Source of the DNA: Emiliania huxleyi CCMP1516
Taxonomy: Eukaryota
Direction of reading: 5' to 3'
Assembly: GCF_000372725.1 (NCBI RefSeq)
Contig: NW_005201792.1
Coordinates: 41,452-105,451, forward strand
DNA length: 64,000 bases
Below are positions 5,130 through 64,000 of this stretch, in pieces. The position numbers were made by a program, and so were the translations under genes. Every line of letters starts with the position of its first letter. The first letter of the stretch is position 1. The notes under the pieces are model-generated. The model saw only the letters and a program-made list of their open reading frames with translations, was not told the DNA's origin and did no database searches.

Positions 5130-5252
5130 CCCCGAGACCGACCCAAGACTGACCCGAGACCCGAGATCGACCCGAGATCGACCCGAGATCGACCCGAGAT
5201 CGACCCGAGATTGACCGATCGACCTGATATCGACCCGAGATCGACCCGAGAT
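5130..5252 (+). repeat. 11-bp minisatellite (GAGATCGACCC)n
   Basis: Direct tandem repeats visible. Confidence 0.9.
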
Positions 5253-14964: not shown

Positions 14965-15428
14965 TCAGAAGGCGACGTACGACTTCTTGCTGTAGCCGAG
15001 CTTGTCGAGGTTGGCTATGCACGCAAACTTGATCATGGGCGGCGGGCCGCACCTGCAGGGGTGTCGCGGACGTGTCCTTGAACTGTCTGCCGCCTCTCGG
15101 CTAGCCTCGGCTAGTCTCGGCTAGTCTCGGCTAGTCTCGGCTAGTCTCGGCTAGTCTCTCTCGCATGAGGACGAGTGTGTCGTCGGCGGGAGGGGGCAGG
15201 TGCTCCGAGATCATCTCCTCGGTGATGAAGCCAGACGAGAACTTCCAGCCGGCGGGCGGCCGGTCGAGCGTGTAGTGCACCTGGGCAGGTCAGCCGAGGT
15301 CAGCCGAGGTCAGCCGAGGTCAGCGGAGGTCAGCCGAGGTCAGCCGAGGTCAGCCGAGGTTGCGTGTGCGTGTGCGTGTGCGTGTTGCGCATTCGTGTGT
15401 GTGCGTGTGTGCGTGCGGCGGCGGCGCC

Positions 15429-21507: not shown

Positions 21508-22185
21508 ACACACACAGCCGAGACATGGCCTTCGAGCGAGCCTCGCCCTCTCTCTTCCAGGTCACGACGACGCGCAAGATCTTCTCGACCGTCTACTCGG
21601 TGCTGCGAGAGACAGCCGAGATGCAGTCGAGATGCAGCCGAGATGCAGCCGAGATGCAGCCGCGACAGCTGGTCGGGAGGATCGCCGCGCGCTGCTGTGC
21701 GATCTCTCGGACCGGAGACGCGTCCACGCGACGTCCGCGACACATTCGCACCCCGCCAGTCCCTCCTTCCTGTTTGACGAGTCGCACCCCTCCCACCCCA
21801 GGTGCTGCGCAATCCGTCCAACTCGCTCGACGAGATGCAGTGGGTTGGCTGCTACCCTCGCCCTCCCCGCCCTCCCCGGACCCTTCTCGGACCCGTCCTC
21901 GGACCCTCCCTGCAGGCCGGCTGCACCCTCGTCTTCGTGGGTCTTGCCGTCGAGCTGCTCGAGAAGGCGCCTCCCGCCTCCCTCCTCCCTTGGCGCCTCT
22001 CCCTCTCTCTCTCTCTTCTCCGTCTCGCCTCTCCTCGCTTGCCGCCTCTCCCCTCCCTTGCCGCCTCCCTCTCTCTCTCTCCTCTCGGCCCGCCGCTGCG
22101 AATGCGACCCACTCTCCGGTCTCCGCCCCCGTCGCCACAGGCGCTCCCCTCCAAGAAGCCGGCCAAGGACCCGAAGAAGCTCTGA
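20281..22185 (+). CDS. UDP-galactose/nucleotide-sugar transporter (SLC35B1/UAA family)
   Basis: ALRYVSFPTQVLGKSCKMVPVM, MDAVTGGLQD, SAVGQNFIYYTITQFGPL, VTTTRKIFS and a Lys-rich C-terminus. Introns near 20966-21142, 21286-21560, 21600-21801, 21844-21915, 21967-22140. Confidence 0.95.
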
Positions 22186-22539
22186 GACGGCGGAAAGAGG
22201 CGGCCTCGGGAGAGGAGGGCGCCGGTCGCGCCCGCTCGCTCTGCCCGCCACCGCTTCGCGCAACGCCAGACCTCGCTCAGAACCGCATGCCCGCTGCCTC
22301 CTCACACCCGGCCTCTCGAGACATCCGGCGAGGCTGCACATGCGCGCCGCCTCCTTCCGATGGCCTTAACGGTCGAGTGTGTGCAAGTATTAGTGGTCCG
22401 CAGAGTGGGCCGCCCTCGGATTCTTTAAGTTTTCGGTACGAACACGAACAGGGACGGACGCGCGGGACGGGGACGGTGCACAATATATATCTTGTATATG
22501 TATGAAAGAAAGAAAGAAAGAAAACGCACGCAGCGGCCC

Positions 22540-25500: not shown

Positions 25501-26027
25501 AAGAACTTTTTGCGGGTGACGCAAAGGATCCGAGGAGAGAGCACCTCGGCTGCCGGCGAGGCATCCGCCCCGCGCCCACACATCTGATGGAAAGTGCGAT
25601 GAAGCGGTGGCGGCAGGCTAGCCACCGGTGGGGCACACGGAGCGATATGGCGTTCGGCTGCGATTTGAGTGCAACCGGGTGACGCATCTCCTCCACAGAG
25701 ACGCGGGGACGGCGTGCCTGCGAGGCGCCCGATATGCGCCAACGGACCCAATGGAAAGTGCGAAGCGAGCACTCGACGGCTCGCAGCCTGTGGACGGAGC
25801 ACGAGAGCTCGAACCTCGCACTCGCGTGCAAAATCGGCACCTCGGAGCGCCATTTTCACACCGCATTCGAGCCCATGAAAACAACAATGTACCCCAAGCA
25901 GCACGATCACGCCTCGCACCGGTGCGGTGGTGCCGGGCGGCTCTAGGGGGTCAGGCTGGCTGCATGGCACCACCCGTAGCCCGTTTTGCTGCCCTGGCAT
26001 CACCCGGAGGGGGGATTGAACATAGTA
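22540..26027 (+). mobile_element. 3.5-kb TIR DNA transposon carrying a Ulp1-like protease gene, copy 1
   Basis: Ends TACCATGTTCAA / TTGAACATAGTA. Flanks AGCGGCCC / AGCGGCCA (7/8 TSD). Splits an R1 tail (22503-22539 + 26028-26118). Confidence 0.8.
23338..25185 (+). CDS. Transposon-borne protein with C-terminal Ulp1/peptidase C48-like (clan CE) domain
   Basis: GHWHQLLFFVDQRRVLYHEPYG and QSCTHECALWV give His, acidic residue, Gln and Cys in catalytic order. Intron 24876-24944. Frame is open from 22999. Confidence 0.7.
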
Positions 26028-26653
26028 AGCGGCCAAGGGAGGGATGGGAGGACGGCACGCCGCCACCACACAGGGATTTTAAGGAGAGGTGTGTGATGCG
26101 CTAGCCGTCGCCCACCCTGTATATGGGTTATGGCCAGCACTCGCTTTTTTTTTCGCGCTCCACCTCCAGCCCTGCGGGTCTTCAGTAGTACTGGAGCACT
26201 TGGAGCACTTGGAGTGCAGTCGGTAACCTCACATCCAGGGCCGGTGAGCTGAGAAGCGCATCCAGCGGGCCGGATGATCGGGATCGGGCTACGGGCTAGA
26301 GAGCCCTGACCCCTAGCTAGGGGGGTGCGCATTCGCAGGGCAAGGGCCTTAAAGTAAACACGGGTCTCCGAGGGTTAGTTCTGCGCTTTGGGTGTCCCCT
26401 AGCGGCGGAACGCCCCCTCTACTCGGAGCTAGTAAACACCAGACACTAGACACGAGCATGACGTACACTCTCACCCGACATCGCCACTCAGGGCTCCTCC
26501 GCCCGATCTCCCCACCCCCCATCCGAGGGGGCTCCCCTCTCCTCCCGGTCCTCCCTCCTGTTCGATTTCCGATGGTTCGGCGTCGGCTGCGGAGCCCGCC
26601 TTCCCCTCTTATACTTCTTCGACCGCGTCACTCGCCGCCGTCTCGTCTTCGGG

Positions 26654-27999: not shown

Positions 28000-28480
28000 G
28001 ACGGTCCAGGCCACCCTCAGGGATGCCTAGATCTGAGGGCAGAAGAGAGAAGATTGAGTGCACACAAAAAGCAGACTAACCCCAGCTTCTCCGGCTGAAT
28101 CATCTCTCGAGGTCTCGAGGTTGGAATCATTTCACTTTTTCGCACCCTTTGCTGCCACTCATAAAATCGTTGGGTCGTGAAGAGGACTGCTGGCGCAGTG
28201 GCAGACATGGGGAAGGGTCTCTCGTACTCTGGGCCGCAGTGGCAACCATGTGTGGGGAAGGGATTCGAAGGGTGTCGCGAGGGTACACTCGAGAATTTAC
28301 AACTCTCGGAGTGTACACTCTCTTCACAGCAACGGACGAGACAGTGACAGCTGACACAAGGTTTCACCCCACACCCCACAGGCCACACCCGTCGGTGTGT
28401 TCGTGTATACTCTTACAGACAAAACACTCATTGATTCACTGAACATATATACATTATACTACACAGGTACGACAAAACAA

Positions 28481-31400
28481 TACCATGTTCAAACTCCGCA
28501 CTTTAATTCGAACTTTCTCGCCTCGGCTCGTGGGGCTCGGGAGTAGTCAAGCAGGTGTGCGGGGTGGGCGGGAGGGGGCCTGGGAGCATTTTTTTGCATT
28601 TCCGAGGCGAGCGTGGGCCGTGGTGGGCCCCTCCGGGCCTCTCTCAGCAGCACGGAAAGTAGCGCGCGACAGAGCGCTGTTCTCGGCCCCCTGAGCGTAT
28701 TGGGACGAGCCAGACTAGCATGCACATCGCCTTGGCACGTAGGACGCACGACTTACCCACGCACACCCCGGTGACAATCTTGGAAATCTCCCGACAATCT
28801 CCCCAAATCTCCTCCCGCTCTCGCGAGTAGCGCGGCGCAGCGGGGCGCGTTGATGTCGATGAATGCAGTGTGGACTCCTTTTCGACACTCTCTAGCACCG
28901 GTGAACACACAGGCGTTGCTTCCGAGGTGGTAAAAATCTGTGAATGCCCGCCGAAGTTGTCGCGGTTTTCCGACTTGTCTCGTGCTCGAGCCATGCCGAA
29001 AAGAGCGGGCGCAGGCCTGGGACAGCGTCGCAAAAGCGGCCAAGGAGTCCGTCCCGGCTCCAGGCCAGGACCAGATCGCCGCTCGGTACCGCCAGTTTGC
29101 GACTCTGTGCCTGCGCAGTCGTCGCTATCTCACGCTTCCGATCTCGTCACAACAGGCGCCCTCGCCGAGTGCAACGTCCTCGCGGCCGCAAAGCCGTGCT
29201 GGCTCGCGCAGAGTCGGCGTCGCAAAGAACCTGAGAGCGCCGCGGCATGCTTCGGTTGGCGACGTCCTCGGCGAGGCCATGGAGCTGCATAGCACGAGCG
29301 ACGAGGGCCGCCGCGACGGGATCTACAACCAGAGAGAGCACGGACGCCGAGGATCGCTCTCCCGTGCAGCGCCGCAGCGGCTCGTCGGCGGCTCGTCGGC
29401 TGCGGCCTCGAACGGAGATCGCATGGAGGTTGACGAGGAACCTCCCTCTCTGAGCAGTGCTCCAGCGGAGCCTGCGCAGCAGCAGCAGCAGCAGCAAGCA
29501 AGCGTGCTCACGCTGGTGGCAGACATCGGACGCCTCGAGCTGGAGGAGGTTGGCCACCGTGCCGCCGCTCGCGAAGCGATTACAGCGACAACCGGGACGC
29601 AAACATCAGGCGTGCCGACGCCTCGCGAGCTGCGTGCCCAAGCCCGGCTCGACTTGCAAGTCGTAGGGCTGCGCGAGGAGGAGCGGCGGCGGCAGCGGCT
29701 GCACGCGGCGGCAACGACGAGGCTCGTTCGAGAACTGGCGCTGAAGCTCTCGAACCCGCTGCGACACTTTGGCGGGGGTGCATTCATTCAGTTGATGATG
29801 TGCGAATTCGTCATGCGGCCAGAGGTACAGGGCCGCTCCGGCCGCTCCCTCGGCGTAGCGTTTCGCTCGCAGCTGCTGCTGGTGTACGAGCCCAGCGACG
29901 TGCCGACGCTCCCGGGCCTCTACAGCCTCGACGTCTTGCAGGCGTCGCTCAACACTCCGCTGTTGCAGCGGGCCGCCCTGCAGGCGATCGACGACGTGAA
30001 GCTCTTCTCGCTCCACCTGCCCGGCGTGCTCGGCAAGGTGGAGCCGACAGAGGCCGACTCGCTCCTCGGCCTGTGGCAGCGCGCGGCGGAGGTGCGGGCA
30101 GCGGAGGCGCGCCGGCCGCAGCGCGGCCGGCCACGCCATCGCATCGAGTTCGCGCTGCGTCAAAACATGACGGGTAATCGTTACTCGGCCGCCCTGCGCA
30201 AGGCCGTGTACTTGTACCGCCACAAAAGCGGTACGGAGCGCTCAATCTCGATGCGCGGCGCTGCGTCGCTCGCTCGGGATGGCGCCACGCTCCTGTTCGA
30301 CATCTCGGACGACGATATCGCACGCGTGCATAACATCATTGTGCATAACATGCAGGACCTCTCACCGTGGGCCGACAGCCAGGACGTGCAGGCGAGGGCG
30401 CCGATCTCGGGGATGACGATTCGCGCCGGATCGCTCTTCAACCGCTTCAAATCGGGAGCCCCCACCGGGTGGGTGGCGAAGCTGTTCGCGGGCGAGGCAC
30501 CGACGGAGCGCAAGCTGGTCATGCAGCGCTTTACCGACGGCAGCGAGTTTGGCGGGCACTGGCACCAGCTCCTCTTCTTCGTCGACCAGAGACGGGTGCT
30601 CTACCACGAGCCCTATGGCGGCGCAATCGACTCGGGCATCGCGTCTTGCTTCCACCGGAGCCCCGGGCCTGCCGCCGGCTGGGCGCTGGAGGTGGTGGAT
30701 GTGCAGCTGCAGTCTTGCACTCACGAGTGCGCGCTCTGGGTGGACTTTGTCGCGGAGGTGGCTGTCGACTACGTGAGGAGCGACCTGACTCGCTCCTTCA
30801 GCGAGTACCTTCGCGGGTGCGCTCTCCCTGTGTGTGTGTGTGCATGCCTGCGATAAGGCTGACCGGTGTCGCGCCGCCCCCGCAGGCGTGAGGAGATCAC
30901 CCCGCTCAACGGCATGCGGCGGACTTGCACGGCGATGAAGACGGCGAAGGCAAAAAACAACGCCTTCGTCGCACAGCGCCGAAACGACGTGCGCACGCTG
31001 TTACGTCTAGCCTATGTCCAGCGCCAACTGCCGCACACAGGCTCCGCAACGCTGACCGCCTTTGGCGCAGCGGCGGAGCAGGAGCCTGCCGAGGACACAG
31101 ACTCGGACTTTGAGATGTTGACCTAGACCGACGTGTGATTCAGATAGTTGTCTTCAGATGTGTGTGTGATTCAGATGTGTGTGCGTGTGATTTTCGGCAC
31201 GGGTATAGATTAGAAGGAACGTATCGTCACACACACCCTCTTTGAGAGAGGGACACAGCGTGGTGCCACAGTAGCGGGCGCTTCTACAGAGGCAACCGGT
31301 CCGAGGGCGAGCGTTTCGCTCGCCCTGATGCGCATGAGCGACGTGGAAGCTCTCGACCGGCGCAGATGCCACGGGCGACACCAATCCCAGCCTCAAAAGG

Positions 31401-31968
31401 CGAGGAGGGCTGGTGGAGTGCCCAGACGGCAGTGGCTTCCGAAGAACTTTTTGCGGGTGACGCAAAGGATCCGAGGAGAGAGCACCTCGGCTGCCGGCGA
31501 GGCATCCGCCCCGCGCCCACACATCTGATGGAAAGTGCGATGAAGCGGTGGCGGCAGGCTAGCCACCGGTGGGGCACACGGAGCGATATGGCGTTCGGCT
31601 GCGATTTGAGTGCAACCGGGTGACGCATCTCCTCCACAGAGACGCGGGGACGGCGTGCCTGCGAGGCGCCCGATATGCGCCAACGGACCCAATGGAAAGT
31701 GCGAAGCGAGCACTCGACGGCTCGCAGCCTGTGGACGGAGCACGAGAGCTCGAACCTCGCACTCGCGTGCAAAATCGGCACCTCGGAGCGCCATTTTCAC
31801 ACCGCATTCGAGCCCATGAAAACAACAATGTACCCCAAGCAGCACGATCACGCCTCGCACCGGTGCGGTGGTGCCGGGCGGCTCTAGGGGGTCAGGCTGG
31901 CTGCATGGCACCACCCGTAGCCCGTTTTGCTGCCCTGGCATCACCCGGAGGGGGGATTGAACATAGTA
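28481..31968 (+). mobile_element. 3.5-kb Ulp1-carrying TIR element, copy 2
   Basis: Virtually identical to copy 1 (offset 5941). Different left flank, same right flank up to about 32594. Confidence 0.8.
29279..31126 (+). CDS. Ulp1-like protease-domain protein, copy 2
   Basis: Same as 23338-25185; the one amino-acid difference (ATVG/ASVG) lies upstream of this ATG. Confidence 0.7.
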
Positions 31969-33224
31969 AGCGGCCAAGGGAGGGATGGGAGGACGGCACG
32001 CCGCCACCACACAGGGATTTTAAGGAGAGGTGTGTGATGCGCTAGCCGTCGCCCACCCTGTATATGGGTTATGGCCAGCACTCGCTTTTTTTTTCGCGCT
32101 CCACCTCCAGCCCTGCGGGTCTTCAGTAGTACTGGAGCACTTGGAGCACTTGGAGTGCAGTCGGTAACCTCACATCCAGGGCCGGTGAGCTGAGAAGCGC
32201 ATCCAGCGGGCCGGATGATCGGGATCGGGCTACGGGCTAGAGAGCCCTGACCCCTAGCTAGGGGGGTGCGCATTCGCAGGGCAAGGGCCTTAAAGTAAAC
32301 ACGGGTCTCCGAGGGTTAGTTCTGCGCTTTGGGTGTCCCCTAGCGGCGGAACGCCCCCTCTACTCGGAGCTAGTAAACACCAGACACTAGACACGAGCAT
32401 GACGTACACTCTCACCCGACATCGCCACTCAGGGCTCCTCCGCCCGATCTCCCCACCCCCCATCCGAGGGGGCTCCCCTCTCCTCCCGGTCCTCCCTCCT
32501 GTTCGATTTCCGATGGTTCGGCGTCGGCTGCGGAGCCCGCCTTCCCCTCTTATACTTCTTCGACCGCGGCCTCGCCGCCGTCTCGTCTTCGGGGGCTATT
32601 CTTGTTGCCTCCGTCTCCGGCGATCCCGTGCCCGACTCCTCGGGCGAGGGCGGCGGCATTCGATCGCCACGCCGCCCCTCCCCGGGGGGTGGGGCCAGCT
32701 CTCTTCGGTCGATGACTCGCGCCCGCCCCCGCGGTCTCTCTATCGTCCTCGGCTCGTCCGTCCGTCCCGACTCTACTCGCAGAGGCCGCGTCAGCTCGTC
32801 TCTCGCCTCCTCCGACAGCTGACCCCAGGCCCCCCCCGGGGCCCTCCGGTCTCGGCCCTCCGGCTCGCCGGCGGGTTCGTTGTTGTGTTGCGGCAACTCC
32901 CCCCTCCCAGCTCCTTCGCCCGGGTACGCCAGCCTCCGGCGGGGCGGTTCCGGATCCCCCAGGTTATTCCGAGCGGGTCCACACGGTGGCGGCCCCGCCG
33001 GCGGCAGGGGTGGAGGCGGTGGCAAGGGCGGCGGGTATGGTGGCGGCCCTTGCGGTCCAAACGCCTGGTGTGGAGCCGCTGGGGCGGCCCCACGACCCTG
33101 CAGCCGTCCCAGTGGCGGGGGCGGAAGTGGCAGTGTGGGTGGCGGAAACGATGGCAGCACTGGCGGCTGCACCGCTTGGTGTGGAACCTCAGGGGCGGCT
33201 CCTCGACTCAGCGGTCGCTCCGTA

Positions 33225-35486: not shown

Positions 35487-35614
35487 CCTGTTACGTGTTA
35501 GACCTAAAGGTTGGCGCTTCGACCAACTATAGTATACTCTATAGGCCACCTTTTGCGCGCAAAAGGTGGCCTACAGTTGGTCGAAGCGCCGACCTTTAGG
35601 TCTAACAAAACAGG
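35487..35614. repeat. ~125-bp near-perfect palindrome
   Basis: Arms TGTTAGACCTAAAGGTTGGCGCTTCGACCAACT / AGTTGGTCGAAGCGCCGACCTTTAGGTCTAACA around the perfect core TAGGCCACCTTTTGCGCGCAAAAGGTGGCCTA. Confidence 0.9.
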
Positions 35615-37022
35615 AGCTCCTCTCGGAGGGCGCACCCTCCTGCCCGCCCCAGTCACCTCAGGACCTGGATGAGCCGGTGGCCTAGTTGGTCGAACGAAGC
35701 GCCGACCTTTCTTTACGCTTTAGGTCTATCACGCCCTCTCTCGCTGCGACCCCGCCGACAACGCTCGTGTCGCGGCCGTCTCGCTGCTCTTCCACGCCTC
35801 GCTCGCACGGGAGGGCATTCGCTTGTGGGCGCGAGAGCGCGGCTTCGAGCTGCCGGCGCTAAGAAATATAATCTGCCGGGCGGCCCTTTGTGTTTCGGCT
35901 ATTTTCGGTCGCCCCGCGCAAGCGAGCGCGCCCCCTTTCGTTCGCAATATTCGGCCCACGCCGGGTTGCAGGCACCGAGTCCGCGCTCTCACACCAATGC
36001 CTGCGGTCAAGCGGCCCAGCTCGGCGCCGCCAAGCAAAGAATACCTGAACCAGATGCGCGCGCAGAATCATGGGGCTTCCGATCAGGCTGAGCCAGCAGC
36101 ACTGTGCAAATGGCTGTCGGAGCTGTGCGGTGGCGGATCGTCCACCCGCGACACGACGCTCACCCAAACCTCACCTGGAAGCTTCGGCAACTCTCTCTGG
36201 GCGTCGTTATACCCCTCTGCGGGAGCCGCCGCCAAAACGTGTGGGTAAGAAGGGGGAGAAGGCGGAAGCAGATCTGGAGAAAAGCTTGACGCCGTGGTGA
36301 AGTTCTCCTGAAGCATGAAAAAGTTCGTCCCCACGGCAGGCTACGTCCCCTGATGAGTTGCAGGTCTGAGACGGCTGGCTCTCTGTCCTCAGTCTGTCGC
36401 TTGACTGCTGCATGCAGAACACGTCAATGACTCAACGTGGGTTAGAGCCGGAACAGCAATGTTGGGGCTCGACCCCGGCGACCCGATTCACGCATAAAGT
36501 TACAAACCACGGGGTCCAATCGCGCCCCGCACCCACGGACCCATGGCGCGACGAGAAGGGCGACCGAAACCGTTCCCCCCACGCCACGTGCACGACACAG
36601 CTCACAGGTGAGAAGACGAGGGGCCGGCCACGACGCGGCGAGACGGCGGCGCCCGGCATGTGGCGTCCGCGGGCGGCCATGTCGAGAGTAACGCGAGAGA
36701 GAGGTAGTCGCGCCCGGCCAGCGCATCCAGAAGGATAGACATAAGAAACTTTTTCGCGCAGTGGGGCAGAGTGAGTGTGAGCTGTGTGAGTGAGAGAGAG
36801 TCTGCGCGCCTCCCCCTGAGCCCTGTGTGCTCTCGCGCCTGGCCCGTTGAGAGCTAGACAGAAACAGACACTTGAGCATCGTGCAGCTCGGGTTCACACG
36901 GCTCAACTCACCTCTCACCCGCCGCCGCCCGCGGCCGCACACGAACCGGTCGCACACCGCCGCGCCCCCAGAGCGGTGTGTCTGCTGAAGACCAACGGCA
37001 CCTTCCACAGATGCGGCTACAG

Positions 37023-38043: not shown

Positions 38044-39128
38044 GAGAGAGAGAGAGAGATGGGGAGAGAGAGAGATGGGGAGAGAGAGATGGGGAGATCG
38101 TCCTGCAGCATCGACGCGGCGATCGGCCAGTGCGCTGGCGTCGCGCACGCACGCATCACCGCGTGGTAGTGCACGAGGCCTGGCCGAGGCACAGCCGGGA
38201 TAGGGCCGAGATACAGCCGAGAGCCAGCCGAGACACAGCCGAGACGCAGCCGAGATGCAGCCGAGAGATGGAGCGCGCGAGGCCTGGCCGCAGCCCCTCC
38301 GACCGCATCCGCTCGAGCAGCCTCAGCGCCTCATCCGGCTGCCCTCCTAATCTCGGGGCGATCTCGGGTCACCTCGGGCGAGTCTCGAGGAGCCACACCG
38401 CCTCCTCCCCCCTCCCCGCCTCTCTCGCACGCGGAGAGAGCCGCTCCGTAGCTGTGTGCGTCCGGCGTGTTGCGCGGCGGAGGCACCTAGCTAGCGGCGA
38501 GGCAGGTGCGGCGGCGGGAAGAAGAGAGGCGGGGAGAAGTGCGCGGCGCCGGCGGCACCCGCTCCGCCATCTCGCCGAGCAGCCGCAGCGCCGTCCGCCA
38601 CTCGCCGCAGCGCGAGCAGGCGGCGATGGCGGTGTTGTAGCTGATTCGGTCGGGCGGCGCGCTGGGCGAGGCCTCCATCTCGGACAGCAGGAGGAGGGCC
38701 TCGTCCGACTGGCCGCCGCGCTCGCACGCCGCGAGCGCCGCGTTCAGCGCGACGGTGTCGGGCTCGATGCCCTCGTCGCGCGCGTCCTGCAGCAGCGAGA
38801 GAGCCACCGGCCAGTGCGTCGCCGTCGCGCACGCCCGGATCGCCGCCGTGTAGCCGATCAGGCTGGGCGGCAGCGAGGAGGCCTGCAGCGTCTGGAAGGT
38901 GTCGAGCGCCCGCGCCGGCCTACCCAGTGCACCGTGCGCCCGGATCGCCTCGACGTATACGGCGGCGTTGTGGGTGCGGTTGCCCAGGGCAGCAGTGGCA
39001 GTGGCAAAGATCTGCAACGCCGCCGCCCAGTCGCCGCGGCGGTTGTGTGCGGACATCTCGCGGGCCGCGGCGGCGCCCCGGGACGAAACGCGGCCGCCAC
39101 CACGGGCCCGGGGGGCCGCTGGGGACAT
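37023..39128 (-). CDS. Pentatricopeptide-repeat (PPR) protein, multi-exon (3' end uncertain)
   Basis: PSLIGYTAAIRAC, PDTVALNAALAAC, PDRISYNTAIAAC, PSLIGYTTVMNAL. Confidence 0.9.
37825..38097. repeat. (AG)n microsatellite inside a PPR intron
   Basis: Direct observation. Confidence 0.95.
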
Positions 39129-41142: not shown

Positions 41143-43334
41143 ATGTCAGCGGCGCGCGAAGAGGAAGAGGAGGAGGAGCCCGCCTCTCTCCTCCTGCGGC
41201 TCGAGCCCACCGCCTCGCGGCTGGCTGCAATCTGCAGGCTCGACCTCCGCAAGGCTGGCCTCAAGCGCCTTCCCGCCAGCATCGGCCTGTGCGCGACATG
41301 CCTGGAGCAGCTCGATGTGGGAGGCAACCCTCTCGAATCGCTCGACGGCGTGCAGACGCTAGGGCGGCTGCGCGTCCTCTTCGCGACGGGTTGCGCGCTC
41401 GGCGGCCGGGGCCTGCCGGCCGGCGGCCCACTCTCGCGAGTCGACTCGCTCTTCATGCTCTCGCTCAAAGAGAACGGGCTGGCCGTGCTCGACGGCGAGG
41501 CGCTCCCCCCAAAGCTGGGCTGGCTCATCTGTGCGCAGAATGCGATCGCCGAGGTGCGGGCTCCGCACCGACTGAGCCACGTGCGCAAGCTCATGCTTCC
41601 GCACAACCTCCTCGACGCGGTGGCGGCCGACTTACTCATTGAGGCGATCCCTGCGCTCGAGATGCTGCGCCTCGCCTGCAACCGCATGGAGACCCTCCCC
41701 GCCGCCGCCTTTCGCCACCCGCGGCTGGCATGGTTCGCGTTCGGAGGCAACCCGTACTCTGCCCGCCTGTGCGCTGCCGCCCTCTCCGCCGCCGACGCAG
41801 CCGCCGACGCGGTGGCGACTCTGAAGGACGCCTCGGAGGCGGGCAGAGAGGTAGATCAGATCGAGAGGCAGAGCGGCGAAGCACTGTCAGCCACAGCTGG
41901 GCAGCAGGCGGTATGGGGGTGGACGCTAGGCGAGGCGGAGAGACGGCCACACTGGAGCGACACAGACACACAGGACAGGACACACCTACCGGCGGGACTG
42001 TCACACCTCCCGAGTCTACGTCGCAGGTGGCTGTGGGGGAGGAGGAGCTGGGCCGCGGCTCGGGCGCGGTGGTCAAGCGCGGGACGTGGCAGGGTACGCC
42101 GGTCGCCTGCAAGCTGGGGCGGGCAGGTCTCTCACCACACCGCCGCCCGCACCCCTCCCACCTTTTTTTGAAGGTCGCCTGCAAGCTGTGGTCGGCGGAG
42201 CTGTTTTCGGACGGCGACGCGCGCGGCGAGTGGCTCATGGGGCGACTGACCGGCGGCTGCGCCAGCCTCGTCCGCACGCTCGCGGCGTGGGAGACGCCGT
42301 CGCTCGGCATGGCGGTCGAGCTGCTCGAAGGCAGAGCCGAGATCAGCCGAGATGGCCCGAGATGGCCCGAGAGATGGCCCGAGAGATGGCCCGAGAGAGT
42401 TGCGGGTGCGGAGCACCAGTAGGCGCTCCCGCAACACTCTCGCCCCCACTCCCCCAGCCTCGGCGGTGGGCGGCCCGCCGCACGTCCAATGACATGCATG
42501 TCCCCAGGCGCCTCTGCGGTGGGCGGCCCGCCGTCCTTCGCGTCGGTGACGCGCGACGCGTTCGTCGAGGGGAAGCACGCCCGCCTCACACCGGCACAGG
42601 CGCGAGGCGTCCTTGGGCCCTCGTCTGCGCGGCGCAGTGTCCGCGACACGACACGTGCCATGTGTGTCCACGACGGCCCCGCGGCCGTGCCTTGCAGGCG
42701 AGAGAAGTTGCGCGTGCCGTCGCTCGCGCTGGGGCGTGGCTGCACGCGCGCGGACTCGCGCACTGCGATATCTACTTGCACAACACGCTTCGCGTCGCGG
42801 AGACGGAGGCCCCCCCACACCGCGCCGAGAGGTAGCCGAGATCCAGCCGACCGACTGGCAGATCGTGGCCAACATGGGTCTGCGTGGCTTGGTGGTGGGG
42901 GCGGGGCGGCAATCGAGAGGGGCGCACCTCGGGCGCGTCCCAGCTGTACGGGCCCGTGGATATCTAGCCGACATCTAGCCGAGACATGGCCTGTCGACGT
43001 CGGCCGTTGTTCGGCCGCGTGCCTCGGCGTCCAGGCGTGGTCTGACCGTGCTTTCACTTCTCTCTTCTGTCTGCAGGTCGTGAAGCTGTCGGACCTCGGC
43101 GCCGCGTGCGCGTACGACCGGCACGGCCACACCGCCGTCGAGAAGCTCGAGGTGCGCTCGTTCGGCCTGCTGCTGCTCGACCTCCTCTCGCACCTGCAGG
43201 TCTCGCACGACGGAACCTTTGGCGGCGGCGAGGCGGCGGCGGCGGCGGCGGCGCTCCGACACGCGGCGGCTGCGTGCACAGCCGAGTCGCTCGAGGCCCG
43301 CCCGTCTTTTGCGGAGCTGTGCGCCGAGCTCTAA
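41143..43334 (+). CDS. LRR-containing Ser/Thr protein kinase
   Basis: LRRs (LEQLDVGGNPLESL, LFMLSLKENGL, LEMLRLACNRM); kinase LGRGSGAVV, VACKLW, FSDGDARGE, LHARGLAHCDIYLHN, VKLSDLGAA, RPSFAEL. Confidence 0.9.
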
Positions 43335-52432: not shown

Positions 52433-53838
52433 TCACGCCGCGAGGGCAGCAAAGCCCGCCTCGAAGCCGTCCTTGACTGCCTGCGGGACGGGGTGGCGGG
52501 CACGTAGCACGAAGCGCGGTGAGGGGAGACGGTCTACCACCCGGACAGCGGCGGGGCAGCCCTCGCGTCCCACGTCGCATCTCCACGTCCCAAGACAGGC
52601 GGGCGCTGCGCCGCATCAGGTGCAAGAGAGAGTCTCTCTCTCTCTCTCAGGTGCACGGCCTCGAAGCGCTCGAGCTGCGCCGCGCTGGCCGGGCCGACCA
52701 GAGAGCCGAACCGCACGGCGCGCGGCGCCACAGTGTGCACGTGGCCAGAGCGGGGCCGGCGCGCGCGTGTGAGCGAGACCTGCGAGACGGGCTGCTTCCC
52801 CAGGTAGACACCGAAGAGAGCGAGGCACAACCCTTTGCCGCCGACGGTCTGCCCCGGCGCAGCCGCGTCCGACACGTACAGCGAGTCCGCCTTGCACGTG
52901 AGGTACCTGCGTCAGGAGCACACCAGAGCACTCAGAGCGGCACACACCATGAGGCTACGAATACAGCTGGAGACAGCCGAACACGGCTCAATGCAGCCGA
53001 ATACAGCTTGCCCGGGTGCCTGCTCGAGTGCACGAGAGCCCGTATCCCGCATCTAGGGACGAGCACAGCTGCGCGCCACGCGCGACCGACTCTCCGAGCA
53101 CAGCCTTGAGCGCCGCCTGAAAGAAGAGCTCTGGAGTGAGACAGAAGGGCGGGCACCCCCGCCGCCGCCTCTGGAGCGCGCCTCGAAGCGCTCCACCAGC
53201 GGCTTGCTCACGCCCTTGAGCGCCTGAAGGGAGGGTTCCGAGAGGGGTCCGGGAAGAGGGGTCCGCTCGCCCAAGCGGCTAGCTCACGTCGCTGTCGAGC
53301 GCGTCGCGGAGGGCGTCGACGACCGCCTTCCCGCCCACGGACCGGTGGAACCGGAGCAGCAGCGTCTTGGCGGTGCGGCTGCCGCTCACCGCGTCAAACA
53401 GCGCCTGGCCACGCTTGCCGCTCCGCTTCAGCGTCGCCACGCCGCCACTGTCGAGGTACACCCCCACCGCGTACACCTGCGGCGCGGAGCGGCCGCTGAG
53501 CCTCGGCGGTTGCAGCCGCTCAAGCGCGCCGCCCGGGCCGGGGTCGCACCTTGACTGCGCCGTACTTGTAGCGCGTGCCTCCGCCCATGAGCTGCTGCGT
53601 CGCGCCAGCCGTACGCAGCGACTGCGGGAAGGCGAGGCCGTCGATGACCAGCTCACCAGCCGCACCGCCGCCGCCGAGGGAAGACGCTACGGCGATCGCG
53701 GCGATGGCGGCCGCGCAGACAAGGAGGCCCGTCGACGCGCCCGTCCTAGGCGCGGGGAGGGGGTGTGGTGTGAGGGCTCGGGCTTTGCGAAGCTGCGGTC
53801 CTTCTTACTCGCGCGGCGATGTTACATGAGCTGCTCAT
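52433..53838 (-). CDS. Chalcone-isomerase-like fold protein (start uncertain)
   Basis: GLAFPQSL..LMGGGTRYKYGAVK|VYAVGVY, LLRFHRSVGGKAVVDAL, LCLALFGVYLGKQPVSQ|AVKDGF. Confidence 0.8.
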
Positions 53839-55236: not shown

Positions 55237-56880
55237 AAACCGCACTTATCTCGGGTGTGCAAGCCCACACCGGCTCGCGATGCCACGGAGAGGGCTCGAC
55301 GCTTGAGATTGGACCCCATCCGCGGCGATTGCGAGGGCATTCCGGAGGTCATTATCGGCGCTACCGACCGCGATATGTCCCGTCCCGCAGCCCTCATGCA
55401 CCAGGGCCATGGGTTCAGTCATAACATGTAGGCCTTCTCTCCCACAGTTTTGAGCAATCGCCGCAAACATGCGCTTCTTGCGCACTTGCTATCGCGACAC
55501 GGTCACACGCGGACTCTCCAGCCTCGCAGCTCACCACCTCGCCTTCTCTGTCGCTCTCCTGGCCCAGGCCCATCGGTAGCAGTCCTGGGGTGTCTGAAAC
55601 CGCACTTATCTCGGGTGTGCAAGCCCACACCGGCTCGCGATATGCCACGGAGTCAGAGGGCTCGACGCTTGAGATTGGACCCCATCCGCGGCGATTGCGA
55701 GCTTAGGGGACCCCTAGGGTTCTGAGGGCCGGACTTTTTAAGACCTTTTAAGAATTCTTAAGATACAAGCCTCTCTCACAGCACACTGGCACGACAAGGG
55801 CGCGGACTGGCGCGGACTGGCACACACACCGGCTCACGAGGAGGTTTGGGGGCTTAACTTGCCATTTAAGAGATTGCAGGCACGGGGGTCCCTCTTTTAA
55901 GACCGTTCAAGAAAATCGACACATCTGTAAGTCTGGTGCACTGGCAGGAGCCATACTCGCATAGGGGACGCGTGCTAGCTGACTGTAGCCAGCTTCCCGG
56001 CCTACGGCGTCTACCGGGAGAGCTCCTGCGGCTCCTCCCGTGGACCATCCATCGACCTCGGGAGCTCTCCCGCACCGTTTAAGCGTTTAAGACCGTTTAA
56101 GGAATCGGCGGCCCAGGCAGCCTTAAAAAGGCCCGGGCCCGTTTTAAGCCGTTTAAGCCGCAGGCGCCCCAGGGCCCACCCTTTTAAGCCTAGGGGTCCC
56201 CTAAGATTGCGAGGGCATTCCGGAGGTCATTATCGGCGCTACCGACCGCGATATGTCCCGTCCCGCAGCCCTCATGCACCAGGGCCATGGGTTCAGTCAT
56301 AACATGTAGGCCTTCTCTCCCACAGTTTTGAGCAATCGCCGCAAACATGCGCTTCTTGCGCACTTGCTATCGCGACACGGTCACACGCGGACTCTCCAGC
56401 CTCGCAGCTCACCACCTCGCCTTCTCTGTCGCTCTCCTGGCCCAGGCCCATCGGTAGCAGTCCTGGGGTGTCTGAAACCGCACTTATCTCGGGTGTGCAA
56501 GCCCACACCGGCTCGCGATGCCACGGAGAGGGCTCGACGCTTGAGATTGGACCCCATCCGCGGCGATTGCGAGGGCATTCCGGAGGTCACTATCGGCGCT
56601 ACCGACCGCGATATGTCCCGTCCCGCAGCCCTCATGCACCAGGGCCATGGGTTCAGTCATAACATGTAGGCCTTCTCTCCCACAGTTTTGAGCAATCGCC
56701 GCAAACATGCGCTTCTTGCGCACTGGTGCGGCACATCGCCGCGCGACACACGGTCACACGTCACACGCGGACTCTCCAGCCTCTCAGCTCACCACCTCGC
56801 CTTCTCTGTCGCTCTCCTGTAGCAAGCCTGAGAGGTGTCTGAAACCGCACTTATCTCGGGTCTTCAAGCCCACACCGGCT
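55236..56880 (+). repeat. ~360-bp tandem repeat, about 3 units
   Basis: GAAACCGCACTTATCTCGGG at 55236, 55596, 56474 and 56841. The second unit is split by a MITE. Confidence 0.9.
55702..56205. mobile_element. 504-bp MITE, 8-bp TSD (hAT-like)
   Basis: Perfect 17-bp TIR CTTAGGGGACCCCTAGG; TSD ATTGCGAG. Neighbouring repeat units show the empty site. Confidence 0.95.
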
Positions 56881-57967: not shown

Positions 57968-59575
57968 TCACGCGCACGACGGGTCTTCGAATTCGGCGAT
58001 GAGGCCGCGCCGCCGCTTGTGGCCAATGTACAACCCGCGGTCCTGCGGCGGGATGCGCGTGCCGCAGAACCATTGACTAGCGTGCTCGCGGAAGCAGCGG
58101 CGGAGCGGGCGCAGCAGCGCGTCGCGCAGCCGCCCCTGCGAGAAGGTGAGGCCGCGCTCCTCGGAGAGGTGGTCGTCCCGCACCTAATCTCGGACGAGCT
58201 CGGGTCATCTCGGGAGGAGCCTCGCTCCTCGTAGAGGTGGCCGCCCCGCACGTCGAGCCGCGACAGGGCGCCGTCGAGGTCGATCAGCTGCTGCATCAGC
58301 CGGCCCGACTCGGCCGTCCACCCGCCGTGCCTAATCTCGGGTGATCTCGGGTGATCTCGGGCTGATCTCGGGTGCCCGACTCGGCCGTCCTCCAGCCGCC
58401 GCGCCGCAGCAGCGACGCGGAGCAGCGCGAGATGTGGCGCGCGAGCGGGGCCTCTATGGCGGGGTGCAGCACCACCGCCGAGCGGAAGGCGGCGAGGCCG
58501 GCGGCGGAGAGAGTTGGCGTGTGCTGCACGTCCGGCAGCTCCGAGCCTCGCTGCGCTGCCACGCGGCGCGTGAGGGCGCCGGTGCTGCCCGCGACCTCGG
58601 CCAGCCAGCGCGAGTAGGTTTGGAAGCCAGCGAGCAGTCGGCCCAGCAGCGCCTCGTCTGCAGCCGCCTCCTCGCCGTCGCTGCCGCCAGGAACCGAGGC
58701 GGAGGAGGAGGCGGAGGAGGAGGCGGAGGCGGAGGCGGAGGTGGAGGCGGAGGCGGAGGCGGAGGCGGAGGCGGAGGCGGAGGTGGGCGGGAGGCGCCCG
58801 TATGCGACCGGATGGATGGTTGCCCCGAGCGTCTCTGCGCACTCGAGCTGCAGCAGCTGCAGGCAGCGATAGACCAGCTCCCAGTCGCGCCCCGTCAGAA
58901 TACCTACAGGAGAGGCCATTTCCAGGCTCCTAGACCTCTCCTTGAGCAGGCTCCCCGTCTCGCGGCCACTCGGATGCCCGCGAGCTTGCGCGCTTGCCCC
59001 CCGCGGCCGTCGGGAGCCTCGGGCCGCCTCTCCCCACAAGCCGGCTGCAGCAGCAGCTCGAGCCGGTCCCACCCCTTTTGCAGGTCGAGCCACCGCCGGA
59101 GGGGGAGCGAGCGGACGCCCCACGCGTACTGCCAGAAGGCGAGATACCGTGGCGGCGGCGGAGAGAGCGACCCAGCGCCGCACGGCCGGCGAGGTGGTCG
59201 GCCGGAGAAGCGCGGGTCCGCCGCGCGCAGCGCGTGCCACAGCGCGTCGCTCGAGGCGGCGCTGTGCCACTCGCGGCCAACGGCGCGGGCGACGCAGAGG
59301 TCGGCGGCGGAGTGGTGCGCGAGCACTGCGAGGAGGATGTCGCCGGGCCACTGCCACTCCCATCCCGCGCTCGCCTCGGTCGCCGATTCCAGAGCCACAG
59401 CCGCGTCGTCGCATGGAGCAGGAGATGCTGCTCTCGATGCGCCCTCGTCGCTGACACTGAGGGCATCAAGATCCGCATGCCAGTCGCGTGCGGGTGCGGG
59501 CGGTTGGTCCTCGCTTGGCAGCTGGTCCGAAGACCAGCGCCAGCCCGGAAAGGCCATCGCGAGGCCGCGCGACAT
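57968..59575 (-). CDS. F-box protein
   Basis: WPGDILLAVLAHHSAADLCVARAVGREWHSAASSDALW. Introns include 58331-58404 and 58184-58251. Confidence 0.8.
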
Positions 59576-60612: not shown

Positions 60613-63216
60613 GGCCCGATGCGGCGTTTTGTAACTTTTTGTCTCGTGAAGGGGAGGCAGGGGGCGCGTGCCGCGTGTAGGAAACGTGGGCAAACGACTC
60701 CTCGAGGCAAACTCGCGCTCCGACCGGAGCTTCAGCTACGATCGAGGGGTCCGTACCATGCCATGGGCATGGCATGTGCGGACTCGACCCTATATCCAGT
60801 TAGTTACCACTTACGTACCAGTTTTAGTCGCCACAGTTAGAAACGCAGTGTTGCTGAGCAACGAAATTGTTGTGCACTCGCACATTAGGCAGCTCAAGCG
60901 GCACGGAGTTAGCAACGCCGAGGCAATCTGCGGCACCTACATAAAGAAGCTTTGGGCAACGCTTGGCGAGGAGTGGTCGTGGGGGAACGTCCCAAAGATT
61001 GTGGCCTCTGGGCCGGCGCGGGGCCCCCCGGAGGCACCGTGCGCCGCGCCGCAGTGCGGAAACGGGGCTCCGGCTCTCAGAGTCTCTCAGAGCACCGACT
61101 TCCCGAATGATCACGGTTGATCAGAGGGCAGATTTGGAGAGATCTCGAGGAGTACATACAGATAGACCCTCCAATCATCAGAAAACTCCAACCTGATCGG
61201 TCGTACTGACCGCCGACAGATCACTCCAGACAGCAGACAGGCCGACGTCTGCACGCGGCCGGCCGGGCGAGAGGCTTGACACGATCCGACCCTGCGACCC
61301 TGACGCTGCTGCTCTAGCCATCAGCCATGCACTGCTGACTGCTGCCACAATGTGCGACCTGTGCTGGCCCACTTGGCGGCCTTCCCGGTCAGTGGTGAGG
61401 CGCAGTTCAGAGCTGTCGATGGCGCGATGCCGCACTGGTCCCACATTGGTGACACGAGACCACCAAGTTTGCCGGTCCAAGAGAGAGGCACCGGCGCTGT
61501 CCTGAGAAGGTGCGTGGTCCCTCTTGACTGCCCATGCGCGCGAGGCTGTGTAGGCATAGCCTCGAGAGTGCCAGCAGCCAATCCGAGGTGACGCGCATTG
61601 CGCCAGAAGCGTGCACACGATGGAAGGACACCTTCCTACTGACCGTAGGATCAGGTCGTCACTGAATGCTTGATACTAAGGCCGCGAGCTATGCAGGTGA
61701 TCAATTGTGCATCATGGCACGGTCAGCTGCGCCGACAGGCTGTCGCAAGGCGTGATAGCATGGCCGCCGAATTCCCACGAAAACAAGTAAAAAATCGCGA
61801 AAAAATCGCGAAAGAAAAAAATCCCGAAAAAATCGGCGCCTGCGGCGGGCCATGGGATCCCATCTCCCCCCCGCATGGACACCCTCTGGGGCCCCCGCGC
61901 CGGCCCAGAGATTGTGGCCGAGATCACCACGAGTCCAACGAATGCCGGACGGTGTGCAACGACATCCGCCAGGCGTCGGTGATTGTTTTTGAGGAGGACG
62001 AGAACACACTGCCAAACTTCAAAGATATCTTGCTCACCGTTATTTCCAAGGTTTGCGGCTACACGGGTCCTGAGCCAGGTGCCAACAAGCAGTACATCTT
62101 TGTGCGCGACCAGCGCCAGCTCGGTGGCATCGAGCTTCGAGGTCGTGGACGGCAACGGTCGCGACGTCAACAACGTCGGTCTGCTCCCGGGCGGTGTTAT
62201 GGCTGGCGGCGGGCAAGCCAAGGAGTCGCTTTGCTTCGAGTCGCAGGTTACGCATAAGTTCTACCCGGGTCAGCCTGTCACGGTCTCACCACGCCATTTT
62301 GGTGACGAGGGCCGCTCGCCTGCAGAGGGGACGGTGGTTCGCTACAGTACAGTGCGAGGCGTGGCGATAGAAATCGGGGCGTCGGCATCCAGCAGCCGAT
62401 TTCTGTTTCGGCGAGGGAAATCGGGCAAGCCAGCAGCCGATTTCTGTAAGCGATTTCTGCCAAAATTTTCTTCGGCGCTGCGCGCCGGTCACTATACGGT
62501 CTAGATACTAGTACACTAAAAGGTTGCCCTGAGATACGAATTCAATCCTCCCGCTTAACCTTTATTTCGTGTGTGCGTGCTCGCTCGTGCCTCGTGCGCC
62601 GAACCAAGTTCTGCTTCAACAAACCCGTCGAGAGGCCACGTCACGCCGGTGTCCCCTTTTTCTGCATCTTTGTGAGTGTGGCAGCCCACTTTGCCAGTCC
62701 CTAGAGGTGTCTTTGACATTTGACTTCGATGTCTGGTGGGGGACGATTTATGTCTGGTGGGGGACGCACGCCCGCGCACGCGCGCGCACGCCCGCGCACG
62801 CGCGCGCACGCCCGCGCACGCGCGCACGCCCGCGCGCACGCCGCACTACGCGGCACTGCCCAGGTTCCCTCACGCTCAGATTCCCTCACGCTCAGATTCC
62901 CTCACGCTCAGATTCCGTGCAAGGGGGTGCCGAGGTATGCCGCAGGCCGGGATGGAGTGAGATCTTGCGGGGCAGGGCGTGGGCTAGCGCGTGAGGGCGC
63001 AGGCAAGTGCCCGAGGGTATGGGGGTGGGCGCCACCCTGGGGCTACCCGTAGCATTGTCGGCTCAGTGATGGGTATCCCTACATCCTCCCGATTCACAAT
63101 ATACAAAAAAGAAATTGCGGCGTCGTGCTGCCGCTCGGCCTCGGGCCCGCTGCCAGGGCCCAGAGCCGAGAGGACCGAGAGGAGTTCGAGTCAGGTTCGA
63201 GTTCAACCGCTTGGCA

Positions 63217-64000
63217 ATGTTGAGCGTGTGTGCGCAGTGTGCGCTAATCCCTTCTGGCACGCCGGAGCGAGTGTGGGCAATCGGCGACCTGCATGGCGAC
63301 GTCGGCTGCGCCCTACATTGGGTGGAGCGCACGGGGCTGCTGCGGAATGCATCGTTGCCAGCGGCGGAGTGGGAGTGGACAGAGCCGTCGAGCCAGCTGG
63401 TGTTCTTGGGCGACTACATCGACCGGGGACCGGACTCGAAAGCCGTACTCACCCTGGTGCGAGAGCTAACTTTGCGCTTCCCTGAGCACGTGCATGCTCT
63501 CCTCGGAAACCACGAGCTGAACCTCCTTCTCGACCGGGCGAGGAGCCCCAGCGGCGGCCGCTACCTCGAGTACGCCTACGCCGCTGCTCACCCGGCGCAG
63601 TACGAGGCGTGGCTGCCCGAGGGTGAGCGGACAGAGGACCTTGACGGGGTGCTGCGCTCGCTCCACGATGCGCTGCTCTCCGTCTACAGACGCGGCCTGC
63701 ATGCCCAGGGCGTGCCGATGGCGCCCGACGGCCCGTCCCAAGGACCTTGCAGGAGCCTTCTGGGAGCCTTCCTACAGGCGTGCAGATGGTGCCCGACGGC
63801 CCGTCCTCGATCGTCGAGTTCGTGCGCCCCAAGGCCGCGCGCCCGCGCGTTGCAGACGCCCTCCGCCGTTGGCAGCGTGCATACATGCGCGGCGTGAGCA
63901 GCGACTCCCCCCTCGGCGAGTTCCTGCACCGGCCTCTCTCCGTCCACCTGGCAGGCGGCTTGCGCGGCGGGCGGTCGCAACGGGGATGAGCCGAGATGAG
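63217..64000 (+). CDS. Calcineurin-like metallophosphoesterase (Shewanella-like phosphatase type), partial
   Basis: GDLHGD, GDYIDRG and GNHE motifs. Intron 63710-63777; runs off the window. Confidence 0.9.

What the first reader, a model, noticed from the sequence alone, without database searches (positions are those of the whole stretch)
58184..58404. Two minimal ~70-nt introns made of a ~30-nt exon duplicate, CCGAGAT repeats and GATTAG
Seen (minus strand): intron 58331-58404 starts GCGCGGCGGCTGGAGGACGGCCGAGTCGGGC vs next exon GCACGGCGGGTGGACGGCCGAGTCGGGC. Intron 58184-58251 starts GTGCGGGGCGGCCACCTCTACGAGGAGCGAGGC vs exon GTGCGGGACGACCACCTCTCCGAGGAGCGCGGC. In both, the rest is only CCGAG(AT) units ending CCGAGATTAG. 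Removing them restores the frame (LLR|HGGWT; RLD|VRDDH). A PPR intron also ends CCGAGATTAG near 38347. Inference: these are the clearest young examples, with the repeat supplying the acceptor.
Basis: partly seen in the sequence, partly recalled or inferred. Interest (0 to 1): 0.8.

Follow-up and report, generated by a model that had tools for sequence, protein, structure and literature searches.

The report
Repeat-filled duplications that build new introns
In the alga Emiliania huxleyi, two spliced introns of about 70 bases each consist of a copy of the next ~30 coding bases plus a short simple-repeat filler; dozens of other sites share this layout, which likely comes from repair of DNA breaks and likely keeps creating new introns.

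Summary
Confirmed. RNA contigs skip exactly 68 nt (4 of 4 runs) and 74 nt (3 of 4) at the stated places, in an E. huxleyi F-box gene. Each intron is a 31-33-nt copy of the next exon plus a 35-43-nt CCGAGAT filler.

They belong to a class. In metagenome loci ending in the same motif, 50 of 83 sites carry such a copy, against 2 of 2,460 permuted pairs. Median length is 69 nt, and 9 of 50 copies are perfect. Other fillers occur (GGGGAGAT, AT-rich, one telomeric), in both orientations. The filler starts in register with the end of the copy (mean 2.2 nt against 0.5). Donors are GC:GT 36:9, like exon sequence, which could explain this alga's mostly GC donors.

Best reading: a staggered DNA break, extension of one 3' end with repeats, fill-in and rejoining, giving new introns. 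The enzyme and empty alleles were not found. The two focal introns are middle-aged, not the youngest. Ten literature searches found no description; introner screens discard simple-repeat introns by design.

The parts
57968..59575 (-). F-box gene, 4 coding exons (59575-58978, 58903-58405, 58330-58252, 58183-57968), 463 aa after splicing
   Evidence: matches E. huxleyi CCMP1516 model P0001; Pfam F-box-like on P0001
58331..58404 (-). 74-nt GC-AG intron (focal)
   Evidence: RNA skip of 74 nt in 3 of 4 runs
58374..58404 (-). 31-nt intronic copy of the next exon start; supplies the GC donor; the G at 58405 is shared with the acceptor G
58331..58373 (-). 43-nt filler of four CCCGAGAT-type units ending in the acceptor
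58303..58330 (-). 28-nt exon original of that copy (HGGWTAESG), conserved in homolog P0002
58184..58251 (-). 68-nt GT-AG intron (focal)
   Evidence: RNA skip of 68 nt in 4 of 4 runs
58219..58251 (-). 33-nt intronic copy of the next exon start; supplies the GT donor
58184..58218 (-). 35-nt filler with CCGAG(AT) units ending in the acceptor
58151..58183 (-). 33-nt exon original of that copy
58904..58977 (-). third intron of the gene, 74 nt GC-AG, no CCGAGAT units, decayed copy of next exon at its start (likely an older member of the class)
   Evidence: RNA skip in 3 of 4 runs; score reached by 20 of 8,173 controls; below the class threshold
38347..38414 (-). PPR-gene putative intron end: decayed copy of the next exon followed by CCGAGAT filler (donor not fixed, no RNA test)

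Best explanation
These are two spliced introns of an Emiliania huxleyi F-box gene, each built from a 31-33-nt copy of the following exon plus a 35-43-nt CCGAGAT-type filler, and they likely arose as new introns when a staggered DNA break was repaired with repeats added to one end. Steps: (1) nicks about 20-35 nt apart on opposite strands leave 3' overhangs (inferred from the long direct repeats); (2) one 3' end pairs by 1-4 nt with a repeat template and is extended by about 35-50 nt of 10-11-nt units (in-register overlap shown statistically; the polymerase, telomerase/RT-like or a repair polymerase copying existing arrays, is inferred and unidentified); (3) fill-in and end-joining give copy-filler-original (inferred); (4) insertions in exons persist when splicing removes them exactly, using a GY at the start of the copy and an AG at the filler/original junction, an AG|GY inside the duplication, or a neighbouring old splice site (shown by RNA for three window introns, read from sequence for the others). 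The process is likely long-running and recent too, since copies range from perfect to barely detectable.
For: Splicing. Class: 50 of 83 motif sites against 2 of 2,460 permuted and 0 of 81 same-locus upstream controls; lengths 59-88, median 69. Scan from arrays rather than the motif: 97 of 239 arrays have a flanking direct repeat against 3 of 1,189 permuted (CCGAG family 80 of 150, partly motif-selected; GGGAGAT 9 of 11; GACAC 3 of 9; other 5 of 69). Array-free scan: 58 distinct copy-filler-copy sites, incl. AT-rich fillers, against 0 in 120,706 shuffled bases (2 of the 58 lie in a window satellite). Polarity: overlap at the copy-to-filler junction averages 2.17 nt against 0.53 (36 of 70 elements parsable; 21 with 2 or more against 4.2 expected). 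At the other junction 13 of 26 have none, and the high values look like nested slippage copies. Both orientations occur: among 34 elements not picked by the motif, 13 have a sense-only, 7 an antisense-only, 4 both and 10 no exact splice solution. One telomeric filler with a 16-nt duplication and in-register GGT in L042 shows telomerase-type addition with duplication in this organism. Homolog P0002 (47% identity) reads through the positions of the 74-nt focal intron and the third intron without insertion, so the exon copy is the conserved one. Donors GC:GT 36:9 against 450:119 in the exon copies.
Against: No empty allele was seen: both focal introns are in L032, seven other locus pairs differ only in unit number or small indels, and the read-based test on a young locus could not be run. 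P0002's contig may be a transcript, and it ends before the 68-nt intron's position. No reverse transcriptase or template was found (none among 132 of 148 long window ORFs scanned; no genome held). 33 of 83 motif sites show no copy above threshold. Half of the elements (34 of 70) could not be parsed for the overlap test. 96 of 121 loci come from two assemblies that may be one sample. The motif search forces the TAG end, so acceptor statistics are biased. Splicing outside the window is inferred from sequence only. The telomeric case extends an older intron and is a single example.
Confidence: 0.6

Rival explanations
1. The fillers are the 3' tails of non-LTR or Penelope-like retroelements inserted by target-primed reverse transcription and truncated to the tail alone, with long target-site duplications. 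The introns would then be introners in the strict sense. This shares the break geometry of the best explanation and differs in having a selfish element as the source.
For: RTE elements leave truncated copies with simple-repeat tails and 10-20-bp duplications (PMC2887409, passages). Chlamydomonas PLEs give very short truncated insertions, and Dualen LINEs give long duplications (PMC9977147, passages). In-register priming at one end fits. Several unit families could mean several elements. One E. huxleyi introner family of about 66 nt hits RepBase Novosib-1_EmiHux.
Against: No shared element body was seen in the 77 catalogued insertions (by inspection of the 34 printed and); all 28 fillers compared were distinct. 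AT-rich and telomeric fillers sit in the same layout. No RT among 132 window ORFs. Only about 240 kb of loci plus the window were examined, selected for short arrays, so long elements could be missed.
Confidence: 0.2
2. Plain tandem duplication of exon sequence (Rogers model) followed by local microsatellite growth in the spacer.
For: Tandem duplication is an accepted route to intron gain (PMC3443670, passages). Slippage duplications that reuse an array exist here (L086, L057, L092). Unit number varies between alleles (L009/L096, L062/L104). Some members use an AG|GC inside the duplication (L042, L034).
Against: Perfect copies already flank full 35-50-nt arrays (9 of 50). The last 30 nt are on average 79% identical between unrelated loci while the 5' parts are 30% (378 pairs; inflated by the search motif). 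The filler is not a copy of local sequence.
Confidence: 0.08
3. Old introns were remodelled: partial conversion by a cDNA of the spliced mRNA replaced the intron's 5' part with the start of the next exon, so no intron was gained.
For: In the focal class the copy starts at or within 2 nt of the exon junction (27 of 28), as this model predicts. No empty allele was seen.
Against: That start position is forced by the search motif. Other members straddle the junction by 7-25 nt or end on an old donor, with fillers in either orientation; a cDNA cannot copy intron-side letters. P0002 is uninterrupted at two of the positions (weak if it is a transcript).
Confidence: 0.08
4. Assembly artefact or chance similarity.
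For: Short exact repeats of 31 nt or more can confuse assemblers; L064 and L104 show stacked copies that may be such errors.
Against: The focal copies carry mismatches, recur in the independent assembly L032 and are skipped in RNA contigs of three studies; permutation controls are near zero.
Confidence: 0.02

Closest known systems
[quoted passage not shown]
   Same: Filler DNA between direct repeats at a staggered break becomes a precisely removed intron.
   Different: The review speaks of short direct repeats and lists 5 clear events, some with mitochondrial filler. Here the repeats are about 20-35 nt, make up the intron's 5' half and supply the donor; fillers are families of 10-11-nt repeats; dozens of cases lie in about 0.3 Mb.
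Introners (PMC9860276 / bioRxiv 10.1101/2022.06.06.494994; PMC12130899)
   Same: Many recent introns of similar length; donor co-opted from the duplication, acceptor partly carried. E. huxleyi is listed in their tables (653 elements in 5 families in 2022; 3 families of 5-45 members in 2025). One 5-member family of about 70 nt is noted as 'co-opt 5' carry 3'' with '10bp terminal direct repeats' and may overlap this class.
   Different: Their families need similarity up to both intron ends, TSDs listed for E. huxleyi are 2-4 nt or unknown, and simple-repeat-driven families were removed. Here the 5' half is locus-specific, there are no terminal inverted repeats, and the duplication is 20-35 nt.
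Interstitial telomeric insertions by telomerase at breaks (PMC7215372, passages)
   Same: Short-unit repeats added in register to a 3' end (31 of 40 loci there), sometimes with target duplication at a staggered break (3 of 66). One such telomeric insertion is present in L042.
   Different: The focal fillers are not telomeric; the duplication is the rule here; the products are introns.
Tandem genomic duplication (Rogers model; PMC3443670) and small tandem duplications from 3'-overhang breaks (PMC8355091, abstract)
   Same: Duplicated exon sequence supplies splice sites; 3' overhangs filled in give duplications.
   Different: A foreign filler of 35-50 nt separates the copies, brings the intron to about 70 nt and usually completes the acceptor.
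RTE retrotransposon microsatellite families (PMC2887409, passages)
   Same: Simple-repeat insertions flanked by 10-20-bp duplications at unrelated loci.
   Different: Those keep part of the element body and 3' UTR; none was seen here.

Membership tests
Spliceosomal GY-AG intron | Removed from RNA at GT/GC...AG ends, restoring the frame | tested here: met
   (contigs; strand not shown; joint slides 3-7 nt and includes the GY-AG placement)
Introner (TE-derived intron family) | Similarity between copies extends to both intron ends | tested here: not met
   5' 25 nt mean identity 0.30, last 30 nt 0.79, 378 pairs from 28 introns; all 28 fillers distinct
Introner (TE-derived intron family) | Short TSD and/or terminal inverted repeats as in MITE-type families | tested here: not met
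   duplications 15-38 nt in 46 young elements; no inverted ends, best 3-7 of 10. Some introners lack both, so this alone does not exclude membership
Introner (TE-derived intron family) | Presence/absence polymorphism or intron-less orthologs | tested here: inconclusive
   both focal introns present in L032; no empty allele in 8 locus pairs; P0002 uninterrupted but of unknown molecule type
Introner (TE-derived intron family) | An autonomous element or transposase/RT that mobilises it | not testable with these tools
   no genome held; none in 132 of 148 long window ORFs
DSB-repair intron gain | Direct repeats flanking the new sequence above background | tested here: met
DSB-repair intron gain | Filler traceable to another source such as organelle DNA | tested here: inconclusive
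   fillers share unit families across loci and one is telomeric; AT-rich fillers were not traced
Rogers tandem duplication | Intron made only of duplicated sequence, with AG|GT inside the duplication | tested here: not met
   focal introns hold 35-43 nt of non-local filler and the acceptor lies at the filler end; some class members do use an internal AG|GC
Telomerase-made interstitial insertion | Inserted repeat is the telomeric repeat | tested here: not met
   focal fillers are CCGAGAT units; met only by the single L042 case
Telomerase-made interstitial insertion | [quoted passage not shown] | tested here: met
   class level, (2.17 against 0.53 nt; 36 of 70 parsable); at the focal 74-nt intron only 1 nt by eye

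The most novel reading that the evidence does not exclude
E. huxleyi runs a transposon-free intron factory: a telomerase-like or other reiterating polymerase adds 10-11-nt repeats to staggered breaks, making thousands of ~70-nt introns whose donors are drawn from coding DNA. This would explain in one step the alga's majority of GC donors and its repeat-filled introns, and be a large route of intron gain that introner screens cannot see.
Probability: 0.35. Interest if true: 0.9.

Novelty: new variant of a known kind. Interest (0 to 1): 0.72.

Why it matters
How new spliceosomal introns arise is an open question; large-scale gain is currently credited mainly to transposons (PMC12130899, passages). 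This class has a readable birth record: each intron carries a copy of its own insertion site, which dates it and shows the break geometry. Perfect copies give ready PCR targets for finding empty alleles. The 4:1 GC:GT donor ratio equals that of exon sequence and offers a mechanism for the 56-65% GC donors reported for this alga (PMC4028052, passages). It also affects annotation: the public model of this gene misses residues at both GC donors.

Tried and rejected
No whole genome is held, so no genome-wide count. A motif scan of viral contigs found 0. The first duplicate scan was swamped by simple repeats and was replaced. The first overlap test was inflated by alignment overrun in 3 rows and was redone. 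Allele comparison among fetched loci found no empty allele (8 pairs). A read-based test for empty alleles at a young locus was not obtained, so polymorphism stays open. Window candidates 35706-35594 and 33207-33098 have copies but no convincing coding context. The filler's far end lies 4-8 nt after the GAGA core in 13 of 23 cases, a weak hint of a template boundary that I do not rely on. Earlier findings of this scan: none. Papers without bearing: PMC2784329, PMC8287931 (no Emiliania passage), PMC11282704 (no haptophyte passage). The 2013 E. huxleyi genome paper is not held. Rows dropped: 10 of 108 sites of low GC, 6 as alleles, duplicates, the window's own locus or long non-algal-looking contigs, and 9 whose exon side holds the repeat; before that, 12 duplicate and 8 short-flank sites were dropped.

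Full report
Observation. Both segments are as described: 58404-58331 (74 nt, GC-AG) and 58251-58184 (68 nt, GT-AG) on the minus strand. Each starts with a copy of the next exon (31 nt with 2 mismatches and a 3-nt gap; 33 nt with 4 mismatches) and continues with CCGAGAT-type units. The terminal 10-mer occurs 3 times in the window against 0.06 expected. RNA contigs from 4 runs of 3 studies skip 68 nt (4 of 4) and 74 nt (3 of 4) at these places. The fourth run has a contig with a 3-nt gap on the duplicate, which I read as the spliced form. DNA-type runs hold 0.89-0.92 of the region's words and RNA runs 0.53-0.70. A third intron, 58977-58904, is skipped in 3 of 4 runs; one low-depth contig retains it. 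It has no repeat units but a decayed exon copy (20 of 8,173 controls reach its score).

Gene and organism. The spliced frame is 463 aa. It matches P0001, labelled EMIHUDRAFT_199867 of Emiliania huxleyi CCMP1516, at all but one aligned residue up to the window's stop; the public model lacks 6 and 4 residues at the two GC donors and a 46-residue low-complexity stretch. Pfam gives F-box-like. The only other hit of that search (2 proteins among 7,989 scored candidates of 290-2,000 aa), P0002 at 47%, runs uninterrupted through the third intron's and the 74-nt intron's positions and keeps HGGWTxESGR. So the exon copy is the conserved one. Whether P0002 comes from DNA is unknown.

The class. A scan of metagenome contigs for two units ending in TAG gave 121 loci. 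After removing low-GC, redundant and repeat-flanked sites, 50 of 83 have an upstream copy of the following 36 nt, against 2 of 2,460 permuted pairs and 0 of 81 same-locus controls. Lengths run 59-88 nt (median 69), identity 0.77-1.00 (median 0.93), with 9 perfect. The focal introns score 0.92 and 0.88, and both stand in L032, an independent assembly of the same locus: middle-aged and probably fixed. Scans not tied to the motif show the same layout with other fillers: GGGGAGAT units (9 of 11 arrays), GACAC units (3 of 9), AT-rich stretches and one telomeric array. In the window, three more sites restore a plausible frame when removed (+42102-42173, +63710-63777, -53302-53224), and the PPR site carries a decayed copy. 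These are not RNA-tested.

Anatomy and mechanism. Young duplications are 15-38 nt long (46 elements; mismatches near the ends can shorten them). Fillers lie in either orientation to the splice solution. The duplication may start at the junction, straddle it (L042, L034) or end on an old donor (L104, L042), in which case it lengthens an old intron. This points to DNA-level insertion filtered by spliceability (inference). With the GAGAT strand as top strand, the end of the first copy overlaps the repeat register by 2.17 nt on average against 0.53 in controls, while half of the far junctions (13 of 26) have no overlap. That polarity is what extension of a 3' end on a repeat template would leave. 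The telomeric case has the same polarity, with GGT in register. No terminal inverted repeats and no shared 5' sequence were found, and no RT in 132 of 148 long window ORFs. I therefore favour staggered break, in-register extension, fill-in and joining (0.6) over a tail-only retroelement (0.2), duplication plus microsatellite growth (0.08) and cDNA remodelling of old introns (0.08). Splicing is shown; break, enzyme and gain are inferred.

Splice sites. In 24 of 28 motif-selected members the acceptor's G or AG is also found before the donor, so the filler often adds only the A; selection for a strong donor context could give the same pattern. Donors are GC:GT 36:9, as in exon sequence (450:119). 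Feldmesser et al. report 56-65% GC donors and ascribe them to high GC content (PMC4028052, passages); recruitment from coding DNA gives a mechanism (inference).

What is known. Break-repair and tandem-duplication gains are established routes (PMC3443670, passages). Telomerase insertions show in-register letters and occasional duplications (PMC7215372, passages). 3'-overhang breaks give duplications (PMC8355091, abstract). Retroelements can leave repeat tails with long duplications (PMC2887409 and PMC9977147, passages). The introner surveys do not name E. huxleyi in their main texts but list it in tables: 5 families with TSD unknown or absent, and 3 small families with 2-4-nt TSDs where given. 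One of these may overlap this class; I did not see its sequences. Their filters require end-to-end similarity and remove simple-repeat families. Ten searches (listings only) showed no description of exon-copy-plus-repeat introns in haptophytes; the library lacks most subscription papers. From recall, not from a call, the 2013 genome paper notes dense 10-11-bp repeats in introns; it could not be read.

Limits. No empty allele, no enzyme, no genome-wide count; 96 of 121 loci come from two assemblies; class splicing outside the window is inferred. The window alone holds about seven likely members in 64 kb; scaled to the 168-Mb assembly listed that would be on the order of ten thousand, a rough guess from one window.

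Verdict. Real, RNA-supported introns that exemplify an apparently undescribed, genome-scale variant of intron gain. New variant of a known kind; interest 0.72.

Noticed in passing
window 58904-58977 (-): Third intron of the F-box gene, spliced in 3 of 4 RNA runs, GC donor, decayed exon copy, no CCGAGAT units.
   Followed up: yes
window 42102-42173 (+), 63710-63777 (+), 53224-53302 (-): Further 68-79-nt candidates with exon copy and other fillers (pyrimidine-rich, GGAGCCTTC, CGGACCCCTC); removal gives plausible frames; no RNA test.
   Followed up: partly
window 35594-35706 (-), 33098-33207 (-): Copy-spacer-copy layouts of 110-113 nt without clear coding context.
   Followed up: partly
L042 1057-1118 (-): Telomeric TTAGGG/TTGGGG array between 16-nt direct repeats that include an exon end and donor; extends an older intron; looks like a telomerase insertion at a staggered break.
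   Followed up: partly
L108 200-305, L121 80-179, L064 786-872, L044 522-619, L028 2279-2401, L016 1278-1363: AT-rich or low-complexity fillers in the same layout; source not traced.
   Followed up: no
L086, L057, L092: Slippage duplications that copy an intron's array end plus the next exon start, stacking two acceptors.
   Followed up: partly
window about 61007-61900: 913-bp insertion absent from L032, with an ~11-nt target duplication and ~22-nt inverted ends: a polymorphic MITE-like element. L032 has its own 190-bp insertion near window 59612.
   Followed up: no
window 58696-58783: Coding hexamer repeat (Ser-Ala) differs by 36 nt between the window and L032 and is left out of the public gene model.
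   Followed up: partly
window 22400-26650 and 28341-32600: Near-identical blocks (4,160 identities, 16 mismatches, 157 gap positions) on either side of the 100-N gap: recent duplication or assembly error.
   Followed up: partly
window about 55300-56850: Tandem repeats of about 360 bp; an E. huxleyi introner row also mentions a 360-bp element; link untested.
   Followed up: no
window 5131-5252, 6949-7073, 7665-8764, 12767-12817, 15095-15360, 21606-21662, 42338-42398: CCGAG-family arrays without a detectable flanking duplication: older members, array-only expansions or a different origin.
   Followed up: partly
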